Of a DNA stretch of 64,000 nucleotides, positions 1 through 56,700 are shown one piece after another. Position numbers and translations under genes: made by a program. A model generated the notes under the pieces. That model had not been told where the DNA came from. It was given only the letters and a program-made list of their open reading frames with translations, and did not search any database. Position 1 is the stretch's first letter; every line of letters starts with the position of its first letter. The stretch comes from Escherichia phage slur09: the sequence record NC_028840.1. One strand, given 5' to 3'.

Positions 1-3000
1 ACCGCAGCTAAAACTTCAGAAACTAATGCTAATAGTAGCAAAACTGCTGCGGCTGCTTCTGCTTCAGCAGCTAAAACATCAGAAACTAATGCCAGTGCTT
101 CGGCTGCTGCGGCTAAAACATCAGAAACTAATGCTAATAATAGTAAAAATGCTGCTGCTAATAGTGCTAATGCTGCTAAAGCATCAGAAACCAATGCTAA
201 AACATCAGAAACTAATGCGGCGGCATCTGCTACTAAAGCTGAAAATGTAGCTTCTGGTATGCGAGATTCTATAGGTCTTGGTTCATCACAACGTGAGTGT
301 ACTGATATTTCCGGCGATCCATCAGGATATATCGGATTTATGCGTATTAGGAGTAGCGCAAAAGGCTTCCCGTCGATCGCATCCGGTGAAAACAGTATTA
401 CAGGGTTTATTAGTCAGGTAGATGGAACTCCAGCGTATGCAGGTGTATTTCAGGGATGGGATACGTTCTCGCTTTATACTTATCGCTGGAATCCGACAAT
501 AGGTCCGCAATGGCAGCGCCATGCTCGCAAAAATGAAGTTGACAAACTTGTACAGCTTAATTCTGAGACCCAGCTGTTAAACCCAGGTGATAATGCTAAA
601 ATTATTATTACTAGTAATAAACTTTGGGGAGCTTATGATATAGAAAATAGATCATATATACCACTTGCAGTAGGACAAGGAGGTACTGGCGGTAGGTCAG
701 CTGCTGAAGCTAGAAATAATCTACAGCTAAACCGTTTTCAGCGTTCTAGTGATACAAGAACTATCATTTTATCTACAGACGTCCAGAAGGATGGTTGTTA
801 CTTACAGGTTGATGCTGATGGTCAATGGGGTGCGTTTAACCCTAAAATCGGTAAATGGCAAGCGCTTGCCATTCCGCAGGGTGGTACTGGGGCTAATGAT
901 ACCAGCACGGCACGCACAAATTTGCAGGTTATGTATGAGGCAAAAACTGGCCTTGATGAGAATACGAACTTAAACGATATAAAAGGTACTACAGCTGGTT
1001 TTTATTACCAACCAATGTCTGCCAATGCAAAGCCAGAACTAAATTACCCTATACAGCTTGCGGGTGCACTGAGGGTTTTAAAGGACGGGGCTAATGTTGG
1101 GTACTCATGTATTCAGACTTATTATGTATACAATAACCCAAAAATCTCATATAGCCGTGTATACAATGGTGGTTCTGACACATGGTCAGACTGGGTGAGA
1201 AACGTATCAACAGGAAGAATTGAAGAAGGAGAATCGACCACTTATGTTTATTCTGATTATTCTCCATTAGCACCTAGACTTCAAGTGGGAACATCTGGAT
1301 TGTGGGGCTGTCATAATGGATCATCATGGGTTCCATTATCTATTGGTCAAGGTGGCACAGGTGCAACTACACTTCAAGATGCAAAAACCAACTTACAGAT
1401 CCCTGAAGGTGGTTTAACTAAAGCCATGCTCTTGCAAGCTCCCAAAGGTGCAGAGGATGGTAAATACTACCCTGTCATAATCGACGCCTCAGGAATTGAA
1501 GGTAACGGAAACCTTACGTGCCCTATTGATATAAAAACAGCAGGACGCGCATCATCCGATCCGATGAATAGCAATACATTTAGTGGGTATTTTAGATGTG
1601 GTGGCTGGTCTGATACCAAAGATATAGCTTACGGCTCATTTATTACCTATGACAAAAATGAGCTTGGTATACTTTGTCTCAAGGTATCGCAGAAAGACTA
1701 TCCGCAATATGTAGCGTTTTATATTCACAAATCAGCTTTCCCGATATTATTGCAAACAGGCTATAAAGCGCGAGTTATTGTACCAACAGAAGATTATGTG
1801 ATCGGCACAAACGGCGTCAAATATAAATTTGGTGTATCAACGTCAACAGAGGGTAACGCCGAGAACTCTGTTAAAAATGCTCTCGATTTCACCGGTGGTG
1901 AAAGCGGGTTTTATAGCAACCTGCCGTTCCGGCAAGGCTACGCCTATAATGTGGCATTAACAAATGACCTGAATTTTGACAAAAATTTTACCTTCACTAC
2001 TCCTATATTTTTAAACAATGGCCAGATTAAAGCAACACAATCTTTCACCGCGTACGGTACGGATGTTTCAAATAGATCGTTTGTCTCTCAAAGATTACAA
2101 TCCGAAGGAGGTCAGGTTGTCGATCAAACCGAACTAAGGGCCGCTAACGGGTCAGGTGAGATCGTTGTTAGAGACGTAAACAATTCAGGTAATTCTAAAT
2201 GGTTTACTTTTAGTCTCGATGGAACTATGTCATCATACAATGGTATTGCTGTAACCGCGAGCCAAAACTGGGCAATACAACATAATGACAATGTAAATAA
2301 GTTTAAGCCAATAGCAGGGAGCGCAGGCAGTCCTGACGGAACAATGGTTGTTGGCGGATTCCATGCTCAATTTAGTGGTAATTACGCCACACAATTCGCC
2401 GGTCGCAACTCCAGTTTTTGGGCAAGAAGTTTTGAGGCTGGGGTTGATAAGGGATGGAAACGACTATTAACAGTAGACGATCTCAATTCATCTACTAATC
2501 TTACTGTTAACTCATTAACTACCATAAGTTCTGTAAAATCAGGAAGTGGCAATCTGACCATATTAGGTAGCACATCTGATAGCAGTTTAATGAATTGCAC
2601 TCTCCATGGGTATAACAGCGCCGGTTCAAGTCTTGCATGGACAATTGGAACGTCTGCATCTGAAAACAAGATGCTTACAATTAGGAACCTTCATAGCGAA
2701 GCAAAAGTATTACTAAACGGTGTAGATGGAGCAATTCAACTCAAAACAGGTACTGTTGGAGGAGCCGCTGCGCAAGCGATCACTATTAATAAGGATGAGG
2801 TCTACTCAACTGTTGATTTTGCCATTACAAAAGGAGGTAAGAGATTCTCTATACAAAACAGCGCCAACTCCGAACTACCATTCGCTATCAGGGTATGGGG
2901 CTCCAGCACTCGTCAAAACGTTTTTGAGGTTGGCACGTCTGCTGCGTATTTGTTCTATGCTCAAAAAACATCGCAGGGGCAACTGTTTGATGTAAATGGT

Positions 3001-3426
3001 AATATTAACTGTGTAACACTTAACCAGTCCTCGGACCGAAGACTTAAAGAGAATATCAATGTTATTTCTGACGCAACAGGAGCTATCAGAAAGATCAATG
3101 GATATACATACACCCTTAAAGATGGAGGTTCCAATAAGGCTGGTGTTATCGCCCAGGAAGTGATGGAAGCATTACCTGAAGCAGTAGGTTCATTTATCCG
3201 GTACGGTGAAGAACTTCCAGGCCCAACCGAAGATGGGAATACTTTGCGTGAAGAAGCATCATATCTTAACGTCGACTATTCCGCGCTTACTGGTCTTCTT
3301 GTTCAGGTGGCACGCGAAACAGATAACCGAGTCACCGAACTAGAATCAGAAGTATCTGATCTTAAAAAGCAACTTGCAGACCTAACTCTAGTAGTTAACT
3401 CTTTGTTAGCAAATAGGGCACAGTAA
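1..3426 (+). CDS. ltf: L-shaped tail fibre protein (pb1-like), 5'-partial, with C-terminal intramolecular chaperone (peptidase S74-like) domain
   Basis: Frame 1 is open from base 1 into the listed ORF 259..3426, so the start lies upstream of the window; N-terminal AAKTSETNA-type repeats; C-terminal SDRRLKENI...GYTYTLKDG...AQEVMEALPEAV motif typical of self-cleaving fibre chaperone domains. Confidence 0.85.
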   Translation, partial: TAAKTSETNANSSKTAAAASASAAKTSETNASASAAAAKTSETNANNSKNAAANSANAAKASETNAKTSETNAAASATKAENVASGMRDSIGLGSSQRECTDISGDPSGYIGFMRIRSSAKGFPSIASGENSITGFISQVDGTPAYAGVFQGWDTFSLYTYRWNPTIGPQWQRHARKNEVDKLVQLNSETQLLNPGDNAKIIITSNKLWGAYDIENRSYIPLAVGQGGTGGRSAAEARNNLQLNRFQRSSDTRTIILSTDVQKDGCYLQVDADGQWGAFNPKIGKWQALAIPQGGTGANDTSTARTNLQVMYEAKTGLDENTNLNDIKGTTAGFYYQPMSANAKPELNYPIQLAGALRVLKDGANVGYSCIQTYYVYNNPKISYSRVYNGGSDTWSDWVRNVSTGRIEEGESTTYVYSDYSPLAPRLQVGTSGLWGCHNGSSWVPLSIGQGGTGATTLQDAKTNLQIPEGGLTKAMLLQAPKGAEDGKYYPVIIDASGIEGNGNLTCPIDIKTAGRASSDPMNSNTFSGYFRCGGWSDTKDIAYGSFITYDKNELGILCLKVSQKDYPQYVAFYIHKSAFPILLQTGYKARVIVPTEDYVIGTNGVKYKFGVSTSTEGNAENSVKNALDFTGGESGFYSNLPFRQGYAYNVALTNDLNFDKNFTFTTPIFLNNGQIKATQSFTAYGTDVSNRSFVSQRLQSEGGQVVDQTELRAANGSGEIVVRDVNNSGNSKWFTFSLDGTMSSYNGIAVTASQNWAIQHNDNVNKFKPIAGSAGSPDGTMVVGGFHAQFSGNYATQFAGRNSSFWARSFEAGVDKGWKRLLTVDDLNSSTNLTVNSLTTISSVKSGSGNLTILGSTSDSSLMNCTLHGYNSAGSSLAWTIGTSASENKMLTIRNLHSEAKVLLNGVDGAIQLKTGTVGGAAAQAITINKDEVYSTVDFAITKGGKRFSIQNSANSELPFAIRVWGSSTRQNVFEVGTSAAYLFYAQKTSQGQLFDVNGNINCVTLNQSSDRRLKENINVISDATGAIRKINGYTYTLKDGGSNKAGVIAQEVMEALPEAVGSFIRYGEELPGPTEDGNTLREEASYLNVDYSALTGLLVQVARETDNRVTELESEVSDLKKQLADLTLVVNSLLANRAQ

Positions 3427-51389: not shown

Positions 51390-51464
51390 GCACCTTTAGC
51401 TGAGATGGATTAGCGCTTGCCTGAAGAGCTTGAGAGGTTCGTTCGATTCGAACAGGGTGCACCA
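51390..51464 (+). tRNA. tRNA-Phe (anticodon GAA)
   Basis: Acceptor GCACCTT/AGGGTGC, anticodon loop CTGAAGA, T-arm GTTCG-TTCGATT-CGAAC; anticodon stem has two U-U mismatches. Confidence 0.6.
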
Positions 51465-51481
51465 ATTTGAAGGAGCTGCTG

Positions 51482-51754
51482 ATGCATCCTGAAAACTTCT
51501 TTATTTACTGCGCTGATAAGTCGCTGAAACGTAGAATTAACAAAGTCTATCATTATCGTGCTAGTCAACAGCCTTATGTATATGCTTTTGACGGTGATCA
51601 CATTCCATTAGAACAATTATCCTGTGATTACATGATATTGAAGAACTTTGATGAGACAAAGATCTCAAGCGTTCATAATCGACAGAATCCATTAACGTGG
51701 AAATATAAGAAGAAAAAGAAAGGCATCAAATTCTTAAAAAATGTAGTTGCTTAG
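51482..51754 (+). CDS. hypothetical protein
   Basis: ATG after AAGGAG RBS (ORF track starts at 51467). Confidence 0.45.
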   Translation: MHPENFFIYCADKSLKRRINKVYHYRASQQPYVYAFDGDHIPLEQLSCDYMILKNFDETKISSVHNRQNPLTWKYKKKKKGIKFLKNVVA

Positions 51755-51775
51755 TTTCCAAAAGTTCTGTATAAT
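51747..51775 (+). promoter_or_regulatory. T5-type promoter
   Basis: TTGCTT-N17-TATAAT. Confidence 0.6.
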
Positions 51776-51804
51776 AATTACATAAATTGAACTGGAGAAG
51801 CAAC

Positions 51805-52029
51805 ATGACAGAACAAGAATTGAATGAACGTAAGCTGGTAATGCTTCGCTTACTAAATATTTTCTCTGGTATGGACGGTGGAATTGACTTTGTTCATCTA
51901 CGTTCTTTCGTAGAAGAAGCCGAAGGCGAATCTATCACTAAAATCCTTAAACACATGGGATTACTTTTAGATGCTGCTAATGTGGCTACTGAATATAAAC
52001 TAGAAGATCTACCGAAGCGTGTTAAATGA
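51805..52029 (+). CDS. hypothetical protein
   Basis: ATG after GGAGAAG (ORF track starts at 51787). Confidence 0.45.
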   Translation: MTEQELNERKLVMLRLLNIFSGMDGGIDFVHLRSFVEEAEGESITKILKHMGLLLDAANVATEYKLEDLPKRVK

Positions 52030-52217
52030 AACGATTAGTTAGATTTAAGTGTTGTGGTTCTGAACATATTTTCACATATCTTCGTGAATTTAAAATGTGT
52101 GATTGTGGTAAATCAGGCTATGACTCAGGAGACGGGTTCTACACCCGTACTCTAGGGAACTTCAATGATCTAGAATTTGAAGATCTCGAAAAACAAGATA
52201 AATCGACCGTTGGCTGA
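52026..52217 (+). CDS. hypothetical zinc-ribbon mini-protein
   Basis: 63 aa; CC...CDC pattern; 3' end overlaps the start of tRNA-Cys. Confidence 0.45.
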   Translation: MKRLVRFKCCGSEHIFTYLREFKMCDCGKSGYDSGDGFYTRTLGNFNDLEFEDLEKQDKSTVG

Positions 52218-52279
52218 ATGGCTTAGGCGAAGGATTGCAAATCCTTTTTATGTGAGTTCAAATCTCATGCGGTCGTCCA
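52204..52279 (+). tRNA. tRNA-Cys (anticodon GCA)
   Basis: Acceptor CGACCGT/GCGGTCG, anticodon arm AAGGA-TTGCAAA-TCCTT, T-arm GTGAG-TTCAAAT-CTCAT, encoded CCA. Confidence 0.75.
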
Positions 52280-52281
52280 AT

Positions 52282-52422
52282 TTGCTGAAAGAATTGTTAA
52301 ATCAATTCAGGCACGCGTAGGAACACTGTCTCCGTAATTGAAAGATGAGGCACGGTTTGGAGAGGTATGCTGCTACACGCTACGGTGCTAACTCCGTCTA
52401 GGTGAAAATCCTAGTCAGCAAT
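52282..52422 (+). ncRNA. tRNA-like RNA (about 141 nt) with 7-bp acceptor stem, D-like arm, T-arm and a roughly 59-nt insertion enclosed by an extended anticodon-type stem
   Basis: Perfect acceptor TTGCTGA/TCAGCAA; T-arm CTAGG-TGAAAAT-CCTAG; D-like hairpin GAATT...AATTC; 9-bp stem GCACGCGTAG/CTACGGTGC enclosing 52321-52379; no encoded CCA. Confidence 0.4.
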
Positions 52423-52431
52423 ATAAATTTA

Positions 52432-52514
52432 GGGTCGTTAGCCAAGCGGTTTGGCGGTGGACTGTTAATCCATGTCGAAAGACAACGTAGGTTCGAATCC
52501 TACACGGCCCGCCA
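52432..52514 (+). tRNA. tRNA with Asn anticodon GTT on a long-variable-arm (type II) scaffold
   Basis: Acceptor GGGTCGT/ACGGCCC, G73, D-arm GCCA/TGGC, anticodon arm GTGGA-CTGTTAA-TCCAT, 13-nt variable arm with GTC-GAAA-GAC hairpin, T-arm GTAGG-TTCGAAT-CCTAC. Confidence 0.6.
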
Positions 52515-52616
52515 AATTCTGTGTAGAGTTAAGTAAACCGGTAGCCAACCAGCTATCATTGCTGACATCGAATTCAGCCACAGATACCATTTTCATTAAT
52601 AACTGAGGAAACAAGC

Positions 52617-52802
52617 ATGTCCAAGAATGTAATTGCACAGTTAGAAGTTCATCGTGATAGCACTATCAACAATATTGAAGTTGAGAAGAAATACATCGAA
52701 GAACTTAAACATGATATACTAGTAAGTCTTAATCGTCTTAATGTACGAAAAGACTTTCTTAAAGAACTTAATGCAGCTATTGAAAAACTCAAAGCTGAGT
52801 AA
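52617..52802 (+). CDS. hypothetical protein
   Basis: ORF track, 61 aa. Confidence 0.45.
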   Translation: MSKNVIAQLEVHRDSTINNIEVEKKYIEELKHDILVSLNRLNVRKDFLKELNAAIEKLKAE

Positions 52803-52811
52803 ATGAATTAT

Positions 52812-52888
52812 GCGACCGGGGCTGGCTTGGTAATGGTACTCCCCTGTCACGGGAGAGAATGTGGGTTCGAATCCCATCGGTCGCGCCA
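52812..52888 (+). tRNA. tRNA-Asp (anticodon GTC)
   Basis: Acceptor GCGACCG/CGGTCGC, anticodon arm CTCCC-CTGTCAC-GGGAG, T-arm GTGGG-TTCGAAT-CCCAT, encoded CCA. Confidence 0.75.
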
Positions 52889-52914
52889 AACTAAACTAGC
52901 ACGAGAAATATGCT

Positions 52915-53262
52915 ATGATTAATGCTAAAGAAGAATTGTTACTTGCCCTAAAGAATACTAATTCTGAAGTTAAGTGTATTAAGATAGAATTCGGTTATTA
53001 TGGGGACAAAGAAGTTTGGGTATTACCCGTAGGTTATACAGAAAAAGATATTGAAGATTTTCTAAATAATCTAGACTTTAAATATGATTCTGGTTTCGGT
53101 GGACAATTGCTTTATGGTAACGTATGGTTTACTGATGGAACTTGGTTAGAACGTGGTGAATATGATGGTTCTGAATGGTGGGAATATAAGACTACACCAG
53201 CAATTCCAGAGGAATGTCGAACAATTAATGGTGAAGTAGATCATACATTACTATTAAATTAA
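52915..53262 (+). CDS. hypothetical protein
   Basis: ORF track, 115 aa. Confidence 0.5.
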   Translation: MINAKEELLLALKNTNSEVKCIKIEFGYYGDKEVWVLPVGYTEKDIEDFLNNLDFKYDSGFGGQLLYGNVWFTDGTWLERGEYDGSEWWEYKTTPAIPEECRTINGEVDHTLLLN

Positions 53263-53384
53263 CAAAATTTCAGTGCAGAACACGGAGCTAGCAATTCGGA
53301 AGTGCCGACTCATGATAGGCTGCCTATGTACTTGCGAAGCGGTCGTGTCCAAGACTCGGACTCTTGCACTGAAAACAATCAAAC

Positions 53385-53505
53385 ATTCTAGCGTGGTTGA
53401 TGGGGAAACCAGCTTGGCTAGGGCAGAAGCTCGTTCGATTCGAGTGAAAGAATGGTTCTCGTAAGTCCGCACAAGTGATAACAGGTTCGAGTCCTGTCTA
53501 GAATG
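53385..53505 (+). ncRNA. tRNA-like RNA (about 121 nt) with a roughly 53-nt insertion in the anticodon arm
   Basis: Perfect 7-bp acceptor ATTCTAG/CTAGAAT; D-arm TGGT/ACCA with GG-containing loop; anticodon-type stem CTTG/CAAG enclosing 53418-53470; T-arm ACAGG-TTCGAGT-CCTGT. Confidence 0.4.
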
Positions 53506-53514
53506 ACACTATAA

Positions 53515-53637
53515 AGTTTACTTATTATGTAGGTTCCGATAGATCGGCGGGTCTATTCTGGCATTTAAGAGAGGTCTCGCAAACTTCTTTGTCAGCCGTG
53601 GGGTTGATAGCCTCCAGGTGGCCTACACAATAAGTAA
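53515..53637 (+). repeat. 17-bp inverted repeat (TTTACTTATTATGTAGG / CCTACACAATAAGTAAA, one mismatch) flanking an 89-bp core
   Basis: Arms at 53515-53531 and 53621-53637 are reverse complements with a single mismatch; no ORF inside. Confidence 0.6.
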
Positions 53638-54845: not shown

Positions 54846-55083
54846 ATTTATATAAATTGATGAGGAGAAATCCTCATCATAGTTCACTAAGGTATTAGCT
54901 CGACCTAGGACTGGCTGCCAAAAAGCACGATCCCTTCTACTTGGGAGGAGTTCTAGATTAGTCCACTAGATTCAGTGGCAACTGAGTAGTGTATCGGGTT
55001 TGCGAGATGACGTAGTTCCTTCCGCTCGAAGCGAAGGTGCTGTAGTTACGCCGAGCTAATAGCCTTAGTAAACTAAAGAATTT

Positions 55084-55459: not shown

Positions 55460-55554
55460 GGTAGGTCAATCCAATGGCTGGCGCTGGACTCCGACTTGAA
55501 ATCGGTTGATCGTAGTGATACGGTGTAAGGGTTCGATCCCCTTACCTACCTCCA
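55460..55554 (+). tRNA. tRNA-Ser (anticodon TGA), long variable arm
   Basis: Acceptor GGTAGGT/ACCTACC, anticodon arm CCGA-CTTGAAA-TCGG, long variable arm, T-arm AAGGG-TTCGATC-CCCTT, encoded CCA. Confidence 0.65.
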
Positions 55555-55559
55555 AGTCT

Positions 55560-55691
55560 TGAAGTATGCCGGAATCGGTAGACGGGGCTGCCTAAAAGGT
55601 TTACAGGGAACATCCACTCCTTGCAACATACCTCATAAAGCGGCTGAGATAAATGGTCTATCTCGTGAAGGTTCAAGTCCTTCTGCTTCTT
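55560..55691 (+). ncRNA. tRNA-like RNA (about 132 nt): type II-like scaffold with a roughly 48-nt insertion in the anticodon arm
   Basis: Acceptor TGAAGTA/TGCTTCT (6 of 7 pairs, U1-U72), D-arm CCG-GAATCGGTAGA-CGG, anticodon-type stem GCTGC/GCGGC enclosing 55592-55639, variable hairpin GAGATA/TATCTC, T-arm GAAGG-TTCAAGT-CCTTC; no CCA. Confidence 0.35.
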
Positions 55692-55802
55692 GATACATCT
55701 ATGGCTCAAAGTGTAACGGTGCTATTTGATGCTCTTAGTAAGACTTTCCCGACATGCGTTCGGGAGTAAGCTGCTAAGGCTAGAGTAGAAGAGTTTCTGA
55801 GA

Positions 55803-55925
55803 GCCGCCACAATTGAAAATTCGTACTCGTCTTGAGCTGCGTGCAATAGGAGATAACTTGATTAGTATTCTAGAACATGCTAATTGAGGATGGTTTCGCT
55901 AACCCTGCGAGTTTTCAATTGTGGC
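55803..55925 (+). repeat. 14-bp perfect inverted repeat (GCCACAATTGAAAA / TTTTCAATTGTGGC, extendable to about 18 bp with one mismatch) flanking a 95-bp core; 3' arm overlaps the 5' end of tRNA-His
   Basis: Arms at 55803-55816 and 55912-55925 are exact reverse complements. Confidence 0.55.
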
Positions 55926-56616: not shown

Positions 56617-56624
56617 AATAATAA

Positions 56625-56700
56625 GCGGTTAAGCACACGGGTTGTGTCGCAGGCCTTCCAAGCCTCGCTGAGTAGGGTTCGATTCCCTCTAGCCGCTCCA
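56625..56700 (+). tRNA. tRNA-Gly (anticodon TCC)
   Basis: Acceptor GCGGTTA/TAGCCGC, D-arm CACA/TGTG, anticodon arm AGGC-CTTCCAA-GCCT, T-loop TTCGATT, encoded CCA. Confidence 0.7.

What the first reader, a model, noticed from the sequence alone, without database searches (positions are those of the whole stretch)
52282..52422. tRNA-like RNA with a 59-nt insertion in its anticodon arm
A perfect 7-bp acceptor stem (TTGCTGA/TCAGCAA) and a 5-bp T-arm bracket about 141 nt. The segment also has a D-like hairpin and a 9-bp anticodon-type stem enclosing 59 nt of further structure. It sits directly between tRNA-Cys and the GTT tRNA, on the same strand and presumably in the same transcript. It is too short for a group I intron and too long for a canonical tRNA. 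It could be a new structured phage ncRNA, a tRNA carrying a small insertion (ribozyme or protein-spliced intron-like), or a decoy substrate for a tRNA-targeting enzyme.
Basis: seen in the sequence. Interest (0 to 1): 0.8.

Follow-up and report, generated by a model that had tools for sequence, protein, structure and literature searches.

The report
Unannotated tRNA-shaped phage RNA gene
A 141-base gene in the tRNA cluster of this T5-like phage makes a conserved, tRNA-shaped RNA whose anticodon loop is replaced by a 70-base folded domain; it is a new family of the "tRNA-like stable RNAs" long known in phage tRNA clusters, whose function is still unknown.

Summary
Window 52282-52422 (+) has a 7-bp acceptor stem, a D-like hairpin, a 10-pair stem with one bulged G that encloses exactly 59 nt, and a 5-bp T arm. 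It lies 2 nt after tRNA-Cys and 9 nt before tRNA-Asn.

It is a real RNA gene. Homologs occur in about 220 phage records from three groups: T5-like Markadamsvirinae, Klebsiella Sugarlandvirus and Klebsiella Mydovirus. They always sit inside tRNA arrays, and conservation stops at the acceptor-stem ends. Across 11 distinct sequences, 98.7% of pair cells are standard pairs and 16 of 42 pairs carry compensatory double changes; slid controls give at most 2.

The enclosed region is a conserved three-way junction (Pa/Pb/Pc). Pb carries a GNRA loop, and the Pc loop probably forms a pseudoknot with the variable region. ARAGORN (intron and tmRNA modes) and Rfam 15 do not recognise the element. ARAGORN does call it a tRNA once nt 34-103 are replaced by a 7-nt loop.

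It is not a decoding tRNA, an intron-bearing tRNA, a tmRNA or a known ribozyme. It resembles the T5/BF23 RNA1 and RNA2 and the T4 RNAC and RNAD in kind, but shares no sequence or model homology with them. T5 and BF23 lack it.

The function is inferred only: a tRNA mimic, matured by the tRNA-processing machinery, that engages a tRNA-binding factor.

The parts
52282..52422 (+). whole tRNA-shaped RNA gene (141 nt; element positions 1-141 = window 52282-52422)
   Evidence: Conserved block ends exactly at the acceptor-stem ends in four clades with different flanks; CM R1 scores 136-175 bits on all homologs
52282..52288 (+). acceptor stem, 5' strand (TTGCTGA); pairs with 52415-52421
   Evidence: 7/7 pairs, 4 with compensatory double changes (TTGCTGA/TCAGCAA, TTACTGA/TCAGTAA, TTGTCTA/TAGACAA)
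52291..52308 (+). D-like hairpin: 6-bp stem GAATTG/CAATTC with 6-nt loop TTAAAT (no GG)
   Evidence: 5 of 6 pairs with double changes, 100% paired
52310..52320 (+). Pa 5' strand (anticodon-stem analogue, 10 pairs, bulged G52315); pairs with 52380-52389
   Evidence: 100% paired; 2 pairs with double changes (C-G to G-C, A-U to U.G in Mydovirus); NBEco001 C to T gives G.U
52328..52351 (+). Pb hairpin (GTCTC/GAGGC) with 14-nt loop containing GNRA tetraloop GAAA at 52340-52343 closed by U.G
   Evidence: 3 of 5 pairs with double changes; GAAA in clades A/B/D versus GAGA in clade C; L026 G to A turns U.G into U-A
52353..52372 (+). Pc hairpin (CGGT/GCTG) with 12-nt purine-rich loop TTGGAGAGGTAT; the window has a private C to T at 52371 (G-C to G.U)
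   Evidence: Predicted by RNAalifold; stem invariant apart from the window's wobble-preserving change
52358..52362 (+). candidate pseudoknot strand (TGGAG) pairing with CTCCG at 52392-52396 in the variable region
   Evidence: One compensatory change (A-U to G-C), one U.G to C-G, one pair broken (U.U) in clade C; 94.5% paired. Moderate support only
52373..52379 (+). junction J(c/a) CTACACG, unpaired and almost invariant
   Evidence: Invariant in 11 sequences; one G to A variant in phage atrejo
52380..52389 (+). Pa 3' strand (CTACG-GTGCT)
52390..52397 (+). 8-nt variable-region analogue AACTCCGT (contains the pseudoknot partner)
52398..52414 (+). T arm: CTAGG/CCTAG with invariant non-canonical 7-nt loop TGAAAAT (U54 and A58 equivalents kept; G and A replace psi55 and C56)
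   Evidence: 5/5 pairs, one compensatory A-U to U-A; loop invariant
52415..52422 (+). acceptor 3' strand TCAGCAA plus discriminator-position T; no CCA encoded (followed by ATA)
52204..52279 (+). upstream tRNA-Cys(GCA), ends in CCA 2 nt before the element
52432..52514 (+). downstream tRNA-Asn(GTT), starts 9 nt after the element

Best explanation
The interval is a gene for a non-decoding, tRNA-shaped structured RNA that is transcribed within the phage tRNA operon.

Shown:
- The RNA folds into a tRNA scaffold: a 7-bp acceptor stem, a D-like hairpin, a 5-bp anticodon-stem equivalent, an 8-nt variable region, and a 5-bp T stem with a 7-nt T-type loop.
- In place of the anticodon loop the stem continues, with one bulged G, into a conserved 59-nt three-way junction. 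Pb carries a GNRA tetraloop. Pc carries a purine-rich loop that probably pairs with the variable region.
- The fold is under purifying selection in three phage groups.
- The gene is an optional cassette: present, absent, or replaced by an ORF in otherwise collinear genomes.

Inferred from established tRNA-processing knowledge:
- The acceptor/T-arm minihelix, placed 2-3 nt after the CCA of the preceding tRNA, makes RNase P cut at 52282.
- The CCA-less 3' end is trimmed by RNase BN/Z or exonucleases, and CCA may be added by the host enzyme. This would give a stable RNA of about 141-144 nt, like T4 RNAC and RNAD and T5 RNA1 and RNA2.

Inferred, and weakest:
- The RNA has no anticodon, no G3:U70 and no encoded CCA, so it does not take part in decoding.
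- Instead it would present a tRNA-like body plus a specific folded domain to a tRNA-recognising factor of enterobacterial hosts or of the phage. The most plausible role is as a pseudo-substrate that titrates or blocks a tRNA-directed nuclease or toxin.
For: - Anatomy.
- Strand and context: tRNAs flank it on the same strand with 2-nt and 9-nt spacers. No terminator-like site lies on the + strand between 51400 and 53000, and no convincing ORF covers the element.
- Structure: RNAalifold finds the same six helices. Pair counts are 98.7% paired, with 16 pairs changed on both sides, against at most 2 in slid controls and 0/500 shuffles. Further variants carry only wobble-preserving or loop changes. 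Conserved G.U pairs fit the + strand only.
- tRNA shape: ARAGORN calls a tRNA at default settings once nt 34-103 are replaced by a 7-nt loop. The family model weakly hits a genuine tRNA-Ile.
- Distribution: 218-225 phage records, always in tRNA arrays directly after a tRNA's CCA: after Cys in T5-like phages, after Asn in Sugarlandvirus, after Ser in Mydovirus.
- Phage-only: absent from E. coli genomes, plasmids and 100,044 species genomes.
- Optional cassette: a clean indel of about 146 bp compared with Epseptimavirus phages oselot and CRW-SP6. T5 and BF23 carry a T5orf172/MUG113-domain ORF at the same site.
- Same kind known: the BF23 and T5 records annotate RNA1, RNA2 and RNA3 as tRNA-like RNAs with unknown functions. 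RNA1 and RNA2 fold as tRNA scaffolds with enlarged anticodon arms. T4 RNAC and RNAD are real RNAs of unknown role.
- Background for the decoy idea: phage tRNA loci act as counter-defence against tRNA-cleaving systems (PMC11464382 abstract; PMC13096335 abstract).
Against: - There is no expression, processing or stability data for this RNA; literature searches found none.
- The covariation rests on about four lineages, so the number of independent events is small. Pc and the lower half of Pa are invariant and therefore uninformative.
- The pseudoknot has one pair that breaks in clade C.
- The single-sequence fold is not unusually stable (z = -1.72), and in clade A the proposed nested fold lies about 3 kcal/mol above the MFE.
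- Nothing identifies a binding partner. No conserved neighbouring protein gene exists.
- A stoichiometric decoy against a catalytic enzyme is intrinsically a weak strategy.
- The element is dispensable: T5, BF23 and many Epseptimavirus phages lack it.
Confidence: 0.55

Rival explanations
1. It acts only in cis, as a processing or punctuation element. The tRNA-like shape recruits RNase P and 3' nucleases to separate and stabilise neighbouring tRNAs or small mRNAs in the polycistronic transcript, and the released RNA has no function of its own.
For: - Spacers to the flanking tRNAs are tight at 2 nt and 9 nt.
- Small ORFs run into tRNAs throughout this region.
- The cassette is optional.
Against: - A punctuation signal needs only the acceptor/T-arm minihelix.
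- Here the 59-nt inner domain is the most conserved part. It has invariant junctions, a conserved GNRA loop and compensatory changes in Pb and Pa.
- In phages with the empty site, tRNA-Cys and tRNA-Asn sit 7-8 nt apart and need no extra signal.
Confidence: 0.15
2. It is a functional tRNA interrupted by a small intron or self-cleaving insert that is removed to give a decoding tRNA.
For: - The insert sits where the anticodon loop should be.
- The scaffold passes ARAGORN once the insert is replaced by a 7-nt loop.
Against: - ARAGORN intron mode (0-3000 nt) finds nothing.
- No group I or II intron or ribozyme family matches at E<=10.
- 59-70 nt is far below any self-splicing intron.
- The bases flanking the stem (GCGUAGG... 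and ...CUACG) cannot form a loop with a U33-type anticodon.
- No CCA is encoded, although the phage tRNAs read here (Cys, Asn, Asp, Pro, Met) all encode one.
- The T loop and D loop are non-canonical and invariant.
Confidence: 0.04
3. It is a miniature tmRNA-like or peptide-coding RNA. An SD-like GGAGAGG is followed by ATG at 52367 and a 12-codon frame that ends at the TGA in the T loop (52403-52405).
For: - The frame and the stop position are kept in the Mydovirus clade: MPLHATVLTPSR* in the family consensus, MLLHATVLTPSR* in this window, MPLHATGLTLSW* in Mydovirus (sequences).
- An SD-like run is present in all clades.
- The general layout, a tRNA-like domain plus long helix plus pseudoknot, recalls tmRNA.
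Against: - ARAGORN tmRNA mode finds nothing, and Rfam gives no tmRNA hit.
- There is no G3:U70 and no CCA.
- The SD-to-ATG spacing is only 1-4 nt.
- Three of the four codons that differ between clades are non-conservative replacements, and every nucleotide difference falls on a covarying RNA pair.
- A 12-codon open frame is expected by chance in about half of cases.
Confidence: 0.03
4. It is a decaying tRNA pseudogene or a spacer with fortuitous hairpins and has no function.
For: - The element is dispensable, and the site is variable.
- The fold z-score is weak.
- The scaffold shows no similarity above shuffled controls to any of the phage's own tRNAs.
Against: - Sequences are 75-89% identical across three phage groups, with differences concentrated in compensated stem positions.
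- Conservation ends exactly at the stem ends, while the flanks are unrelated.
Confidence: 0.03
5. It is a ligand-sensing or catalytic RNA (a riboswitch-like aptamer or a new ribozyme) built on a tRNA scaffold.
For: - It has a compact three-way junction with invariant unpaired junction nucleotides, a bulged G, a GNRA loop and a probable pseudoknot.
- The T-loop sequence GGTGAAAATCC also turned up in a non-homologous metagenome sequence (L027). From memory, not tested, this motif also occurs in cobalamin riboswitches.
Against: - No Rfam riboswitch or ribozyme family matches.
- No downstream gene is placed to be regulated.
- The hammerhead junction layout does not fit: junction lengths are 7/1/7 and the core motifs are missing.
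Confidence: 0.05

Closest known systems
T5/BF23 RNA1 (144 nt) and RNA2 (125 nt), annotated 'tRNA-like RNA with unknown functions' (GenBank AY543070, NC_042564)
   Same: - Encoded in the same tRNA gene region, on the tRNA strand and between tRNAs.
- They have a tRNA-like acceptor stem and T arm with a greatly enlarged anticodon arm.
- Similar length; function unknown.
- Homologs of both are also present in this window, at 55558-55702 and 53384-53507.
   Different: - No sequence similarity, and the family covariance model does not hit them.
- RNA1 and RNA2 keep canonical GTTCRAATC T loops, and RNA2 keeps a GG D loop. This element has the invariant loop TGAAAAT and a GG-less D loop.
- The inner domains have different architectures.
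- T5 and BF23 lack this element altogether.
T4 species 1 and species 2 RNAs (rnaC 139 nt, rnaD 119 nt)
   Same: - Small stable RNAs encoded at the end of a phage tRNA cluster, next to a homing-endonuclease gene.
- rnaC has a tRNA-type T arm.
- Their roles were still reported as unknown in 2010 and 2022.
   Different: No sequence or model homology; a different fold; a different phage family.
Canonical tRNA (Rfam RF00005)
   Same: - 7-bp acceptor stem, 2-nt connector, D arm, 5-bp anticodon-stem equivalent, variable region, 5-bp T stem with a 7-nt loop that keeps the U54 and A58 equivalents, and one unpaired 3' base.
- ARAGORN accepts the scaffold after the loop replacement.
   Different: - No anticodon loop: 70 nt take its place.
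- No encoded CCA.
- The T loop has G and A in place of psi55 and C56; the D loop has UU and no GG; the D stem is 6 bp; the first pairs are U1:A72 and U2:A71.
- Not detected by Rfam tRNA or ARAGORN.
tmRNA tRNA-like domain
   Same: An acceptor/T-arm module whose anticodon arm is replaced by a long helix leading to a pseudoknotted domain. An SD-like run and a short frame lie inside.
   Different: - 141 nt, against typically more than 300 nt for bacterial tmRNAs (from memory).
- No G3:U70 and no CCA; a real D hairpin is present.
- ARAGORN tmRNA mode and Rfam are negative.
Bacterial Y-RNA-like YrlA (tRNA-mimicking module)
   Same: A non-coding RNA that contains a tRNA-like module fused to another functional domain (from memory of Chen et al. 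2014; not re-read).
   Different: - In YrlA the RNA termini form the Ro-binding stem and the tRNA-like part is internal; here the termini form the acceptor stem.
- No Rfam match at E<=10 to any family on the + strand.

Membership tests
Canonical decoding tRNA | 7-bp acceptor stem, 5-bp T stem with 7-nt loop, D arm, in cloverleaf order | tested here: met
   Sequence; covariation in each helix; ARAGORN accepts the scaffold after nt 34-103 are replaced by a loop
Canonical decoding tRNA | 7-nt anticodon loop on a 5-bp stem | tested here: not met
   The stem continues past a bulged G into a 59-nt three-way junction; ARAGORN and Rfam tRNA give no call
Canonical decoding tRNA | Conserved T loop (T-psi-C-R-A) and D-loop GG forming the elbow | tested here: not met
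   T loop is invariant TGAAAAT; D loop is TTAAAT, TTTAAT or T(C/T)AAT without GG
Canonical decoding tRNA | 3' CCA (encoded in the phage tRNAs read here) and aminoacylation | tested here: not met
   The acceptor stem is followed by T-ATA, T-ACA or T-AAT in the four clades. Post-transcriptional CCA addition and charging cannot be tested here
Intron-containing tRNA (bacterial group I type) | Self-splicing intron core in the anticodon loop; exons join to give a normal anticodon loop | tested here: not met
   ARAGORN -i (0-3000 nt) negative; no Intron_gpI or gpII hit at E<=10; the insert is only 59-70 nt
tmRNA | Alanine identity pair G3:U70, 3' CCA, tag reading frame, recognition by tmRNA models | tested here: not met
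   G3:C70 or A3:U70; no CCA; ARAGORN -m and Rfam negative. A 12-codon frame exists, but its variation follows RNA pairing
T5/BF23 tRNA-like RNAs (RNA1, RNA2, RNA3) | Encoded in the tRNA gene region on the tRNA strand, with a tRNA-like acceptor stem and T arm | tested here: met
T5/BF23 tRNA-like RNAs (RNA1, RNA2, RNA3) | Sequence or structure homology to RNA1, RNA2 or RNA3 | tested here: not met
   blastn gives no match; CM R1 gives no hit to T5 or BF23 regions apart from a weak tRNA-Ile hit
T5/BF23 tRNA-like RNAs (RNA1, RNA2, RNA3) | Detected as a discrete stable RNA in infected cells | not testable with these tools
   No expression data found
T4 RNAC/RNAD (species 1 and 2 RNAs) | Homology to rnaC or rnaD | tested here: not met
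   Alignment shows no meaningful similarity; CM R1 gives no hit in the T4 tRNA region
Known self-cleaving ribozymes, riboswitches and other Rfam families | Match to a curated covariance model | tested here: not met
   Only chance-level hits (E >= 0.17, far below gathering scores), mostly on the opposite strand

The most novel reading that the evidence does not exclude
The RNA could be an RNA-based counter-defence factor. In this reading it is a tRNA-scaffolded pseudo-substrate, matured for free by the host tRNA-processing machinery. Its folded domain in place of the anticodon lets it bind a tRNA-directed immune nuclease or toxin of Enterobacteriaceae without being cleaved, and so block it. That would also give the first function for the decades-old class of tRNA-like 'stable RNAs' in phage tRNA clusters. 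A more exotic variant is that the SD-like loop plus AUG and the tRNA body together engage the 30S subunit.
Probability: 0.15. Interest if true: 0.85.

Novelty: new variant of a known kind. Interest (0 to 1): 0.55.

Why it matters
Phage tRNA clusters have been known since the 1970s-80s to encode extra tRNA-like stable RNAs: T4 RNAC and RNAD, and T5 RNA1, RNA2 and RNA3. Sources seen here still call their functions unknown.

This element adds a well-defined family, absent from Rfam 15 and not annotated as an RNA in any phage record inspected here. It has several useful properties:
- strong covariation support;
- a compact inner domain (three-way junction, GNRA loop, probable pseudoknot);
- an elbow in which the T-loop and D-loop sequences both differ from the tRNA consensus;
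- a natural presence/absence polymorphism among nearly collinear T5-like phages, including laboratory phages such as HildyBeyeler and IrisVonRoten (present) versus IrmaTschudi, T5 and BF23 (absent).

That polymorphism makes the old question directly testable with isogenic comparisons. This is timely, because phage tRNA loci are now recognised as counter-defence modules against tRNA-cleaving immune systems.

On the practical side, about 220 phage genomes carry this RNA gene without an RNA annotation, and in some it is wrongly covered by 'hypothetical protein' calls.

Tried and rejected
- **ARAGORN with intron, pseudogene-threshold and tmRNA options:** no call on the native sequence.
- **Rfam 15 at E<=10, on 551 nt and on the element alone:** only chance hits. 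HIV-1_SL3 and ssNA-helicase fall on the minus strand, and a miRNA model is far below threshold.
- **Homology to T5/BF23 RNA1, RNA2, RNA3, RNAI, RNAIII, RNAIV, RNA2H and to T4 rnaC and rnaD:** none by blastn, MAFFT or covariance model.
- **Search for distant relatives:**
  - blastn from the most divergent (Mydovirus) copy found the same set of phages.
  - Two motif scans of IMG/VR gave the same phages plus two chance hits, L031 and L032.
  - One metagenome scan gave 5 true copies and one non-homologous chance hit, L027.
  - The GTDB genome scan gave nothing.
  - E. coli genomes and plasmids gave nothing.
  - The covariance model found nothing in the tRNA arrays of Providencia PSTCR5, Aeromonas TS3 or Phapecoctavirus AV125.
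- **Derivation from one of the phage's own tRNAs:** similarity is not above shuffled controls.
- **The clade-A MFE pairing of UCUCCG with UGGAGA:** rejected, because clade B breaks it, whereas Pb (GUCUC/GAGGC versus GCCAC/GUGGC versus UCCCC/GGGGA) covaries.
- **Other candidate pairings:** GGCA with UGCC, the Pb internal loop with J(c/a), and the Pb loop AAUUG with the D stem are not conserved between clades (hand inspection).
- **Hammerhead-like reading of GAAAGAUGAG:** the junction layout (7/1/7 nt) and core motifs do not fit.
- **Literature searches** for this RNA, or for any tRNA-like RNA of T5-like phages, returned nothing relevant.
Full report
**Context.** The window is a T5-like phage (Tequintavirus). 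The tested region is 99.8% identical to Escherichia phage vB_EcoS_ESCO30. ARAGORN finds 21 tRNAs on the + strand between 45.4 and 58.2 kb, including tRNA-Cys at 52204-52279 and tRNA-Asn(GTT) at 52432-52514. The finding covers the 152-nt gap between those two genes.

**Observation.**
- Acceptor stem: TTGCTGA (52282-52288) pairs with TCAGCAA (52415-52421), followed by one unpaired T.
- D-like hairpin: GAATTG / TTAAAT / CAATTC.
- Long stem: GGCAC-(G)-CGTAG pairs with CTACG-GTGCT, enclosing exactly 59 nt.
- T arm: CTAGG / TGAAAAT / CCTAG.

On its own the sequence is not an unusually good folder (z = -1.72, 14 of 200 shuffles as good). The case therefore rests on comparison.

**Homologs and distribution.**
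- blastn finds the element in 218 phage records. Most are Escherichia, Salmonella, Shigella or Citrobacter T5-like phages at 96-99% identity.
- More distant copies occur in Enterobacter phage KKP_3711 and Klebsiella Sugarlandvirus at 87-89%.
- Klebsiella Mydovirus, in the unrelated myovirus subfamily Vequintavirinae, carries copies at about 75%.
- In every case the element lies inside a tRNA array on the tRNA strand, starting 2-3 nt after the CCA of a tRNA. The neighbours differ: Cys-X-Asn, Asn-X-Cys, Ser-X-Ser. Similarity starts and stops at the acceptor-stem ends.
- No record inspected here annotates it as an RNA. A few lay a 'hypothetical protein' or, in one case, a 'DNA ligase' call over it.
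- It is absent from 5,426 complete E. coli genomes, from PLSDB plasmids, and from one genome each of 100,044 prokaryotic species.
- Motif scans of IMG/VR and JGI metagenomes returned only the same phage types plus chance hits.

The family is therefore real but narrow: lytic phages of Enterobacteriaceae.

**Structure.**
- RNAalifold on a plain MAFFT alignment of 11 distinct sequences predicts the acceptor stem, the D-like hairpin, the long stem (Pa, with the bulged G), two inner hairpins (Pb, Pc) and the T arm. Thirteen of its 33 pairs are kept through double changes.
- I built a covariance model (R1) and realigned the sequences to it (A5). I then counted pairs for the hand-refined structure including a candidate pseudoknot.
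  - 98.7% of 460 cells are standard pairs.
  - 16 of 42 pairs have changes on both sides. No shuffle out of 500 reaches the observed values.
  - Sliding the 3' partners by 1-3 columns drops pairing to 26-44% and double changes to at most 2.
  - That alignment is fitted to the model, which favours the structure. The unfitted RNAalifold result agrees with it.
- By helix, pairs with compensatory changes are: acceptor 4 of 7, D-like hairpin 5 of 6, Pa 2 of 10 (the rest invariant), Pb 3 of 5, T stem 1 of 5, Pc 0 of 4.
  - Pc is invariant except for this window's private C-to-T at 52371, which turns a G-C pair into G.U.
- Six further natural variants carry only wobble-preserving stem changes or loop changes.
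- Several conserved G.U pairs would be A-C mismatches on the other strand, so the + strand is the functional one.
- The pseudoknot (52358-52362 with 52392-52396) has one compensatory change, one U.G-to-C-G change and one pair broken in Mydovirus. I rate it probable, not shown.
- The Pb loop carries a GNRA tetraloop closed by U.G (GAAA, replaced by GAGA in Mydovirus), which suggests a tertiary contact.
- The junction CTACACG, the T loop TGAAAAT and the bulged G are essentially invariant.
- The caveat is that only about four lineages contribute, so the number of independent substitution events is modest.

**Is it a tRNA?** The scaffold is tRNA-shaped. When nt 34-103 are replaced by a 7-nt loop, ARAGORN calls a tRNA at default stringency, and the family model weakly hits a true tRNA-Ile. 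The native RNA, however, fails the defining features of a decoding tRNA.
- It has no anticodon loop.
- It encodes no CCA, whereas the phage tRNAs read here encode one.
- Its T loop has G and A where psi55 and C56 belong, and its D loop has UU and no GG. I read this as a swapped but still complementary elbow; that is inference only.
- It is not recognised by ARAGORN in intron or tmRNA modes, or by Rfam.
- The scaffold is no closer than shuffled controls to any of the phage's own tRNAs.

The rival classes also fail.
- Intron: too short for self-splicing, no intron model matches, and no anticodon loop can be reconstituted.
- tmRNA: no G3:U70 and no CCA, and the tmRNA searches by ARAGORN and Rfam are negative. 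An SD-like GGAGAGG followed by ATG opens a 12-codon frame that ends at the TGA in the T loop. The frame is kept in Mydovirus, but every nucleotide difference falls on a covarying RNA pair and 3 of the 4 changed codons are non-conservative. I treat the frame as a by-product of RNA conservation.

**What kind of thing it is.**
- The curated GenBank records for T5 and for the BF23 tRNA region annotate a set of extra RNAs among the tRNA genes.
  - RNA1 (144 nt), RNA2 (125 nt) and RNA3 (74 nt) are 'tRNA-like RNA with unknown functions'.
  - RNAI, RNAIII, RNAIV, RNA2H and RNAX are 'stable RNA with unknown functions'.
- T4 likewise has RNAC and RNAD next to its tRNA genes. Their roles were still described as unknown in 2010 and 2022.
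- This window contains homologs of all seven of the shorter BF23 RNAs.
- RNA1 and RNA2 fold as tRNA scaffolds with enlarged anticodon arms, the same general design as the present element.
- The present element nevertheless has no sequence similarity to any of them, and its covariance model does not hit them or the T4 RNAs.
- T5 and BF23 do not carry it. At the same site they have a 172-aa ORF with a T5orf172/MUG113 domain. Epseptimavirus phages oselot and CRW-SP6 have an empty site, CCA-AATTTT-A-GGG.

The Cys-Asn spacer is thus a three-state hotspot, and the RNA is an optional cassette of about 146 bp.

**Mechanism.**
- Shown: a conserved, covarying, tRNA-shaped fold with a specific inner domain; same-strand placement in a tRNA operon with no + strand terminator-like site in the scanned 51400-53000 interval; and optional presence.
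- Inferred from textbook tRNA processing:
  - RNase P should cleave at 52282, because the acceptor/T-arm minihelix is intact and sits 2 nt after the previous CCA.
  - The CCA-less 3' end would be matured by RNase BN/Z or exonucleases, possibly followed by CCA addition. Some T4 tRNA precursors are matured this way (from memory).
  - The result would be a stable RNA of about 141-144 nt.
- Inferred and weakest: with no anticodon and no recognisable aminoacylation identity, the RNA most likely acts as a tRNA mimic. Its body and inner domain would bind a tRNA-recognising factor.
  - Phage tRNA loci are now known to counter tRNA-cleaving defences (PARIS, Septu, Retron-Eco7; abstracts, and text). A pseudo-substrate or inhibitor role is therefore the most attractive specific guess.
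  - Nothing here tests it. I give that specific function about 0.15-0.3.
- A purely cis-acting punctuation role is the main ordinary rival (0.15). It is weakened because the inner domain, not the minihelix, is the best-conserved part, and because empty-site phages process Cys and Asn without it.

**Verdict.** It is a new, unannotated family within a long-known but functionally unsolved kind: tRNA-like stable RNAs of phage tRNA clusters. It differs from the known examples in sequence, in its inner domain and in its non-canonical elbow loops. Interest is moderate (0.55). The category is not new, but the candidate is clean and well supported by covariation, and natural knock-outs among laboratory phages make it experimentally tractable.

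Noticed in passing
window 52517-52589; 53384-53507; 53527-53629; 54893-55064; 55558-55702; 55703-55809; 55814-55919: These intervals are homologs (87-100% identity) of the BF23/T5 RNAs annotated as having unknown function: rna3, rna2, rnaIV, rna2H, rna1, rnaI and rnaIII. None is in Rfam 15, and tRNA finders do not report them. rna3 starts 2 nt after tRNA-Asn and ends in ACCA.
   Followed up: partly
window 53268-53375: This interval of about 105 nt upstream of rna2 is closed by a perfect 10-bp inverted repeat (TTTCAGTGCA...TGCACTGAAA). It is conserved in T5 (L001, about 2930-3035) and unannotated in T5 and BF23. It may be another small RNA, but the fold z-score is only -1.55.
   Followed up: partly
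window 44817-44888, 49097-49171, 55460-55550, 56624-56697: The Rfam tRNA and tRNA-Sec models hit four further tRNA-like genes that ARAGORN did not report. The phage therefore has about 25 tRNA-type genes in this window.
   Followed up: no
window 52432-52514: tRNA-Asn(GTT) is 83 nt long with an unusually long 11-nt variable loop. T5 itself has a different, 78-nt tRNA-Asn at this position.
   Followed up: no
L001 1604-2122 (T5 T5.069) and L030 6749-7267 (BF23 ORF trn 2.8): In T5 and BF23 the Cys-Asn spacer holds a 172-aa ORF with a T5orf172/MUG113 domain that overlaps the 5' end of tRNA-Asn. The same spacer is empty in some Epseptimavirus phages. The site is therefore a three-state insertion hotspot.
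   Followed up: partly
window 52371: This window carries a private C-to-T substitution (GTATGC[T]GCTAC). Every other copy examined has C. The change converts a G-C pair of helix Pc into G.U.
   Followed up: yes
window 52367-52405: A 12-codon frame (ATG...TGA, MLLHATVLTPSR*) preceded by the SD-like GGAGAGG lies inside the RNA and is kept in the Mydovirus clade. Its variation follows RNA pairing, so it is probably not coding.
   Followed up: partly
phage records MG065692 (Campylobacter phage C13), PP355768 (Klebsiella phage AM_K6, 261 kb, 'Straboviridae'), and Listeria-labelled records: These records carry T5-like or Sugarlandvirus tRNA regions, including this element. They are probably mislabelled hosts or chimeric assemblies.
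   Followed up: no
L029 463-531 (Enterobacter phage KKP_3711): The tRNA-Cys(GCA)-like gene just upstream of the element is not annotated in that record. Its T loop reads GGTTAAAATCC rather than the usual GTTCRAATC.
   Followed up: no
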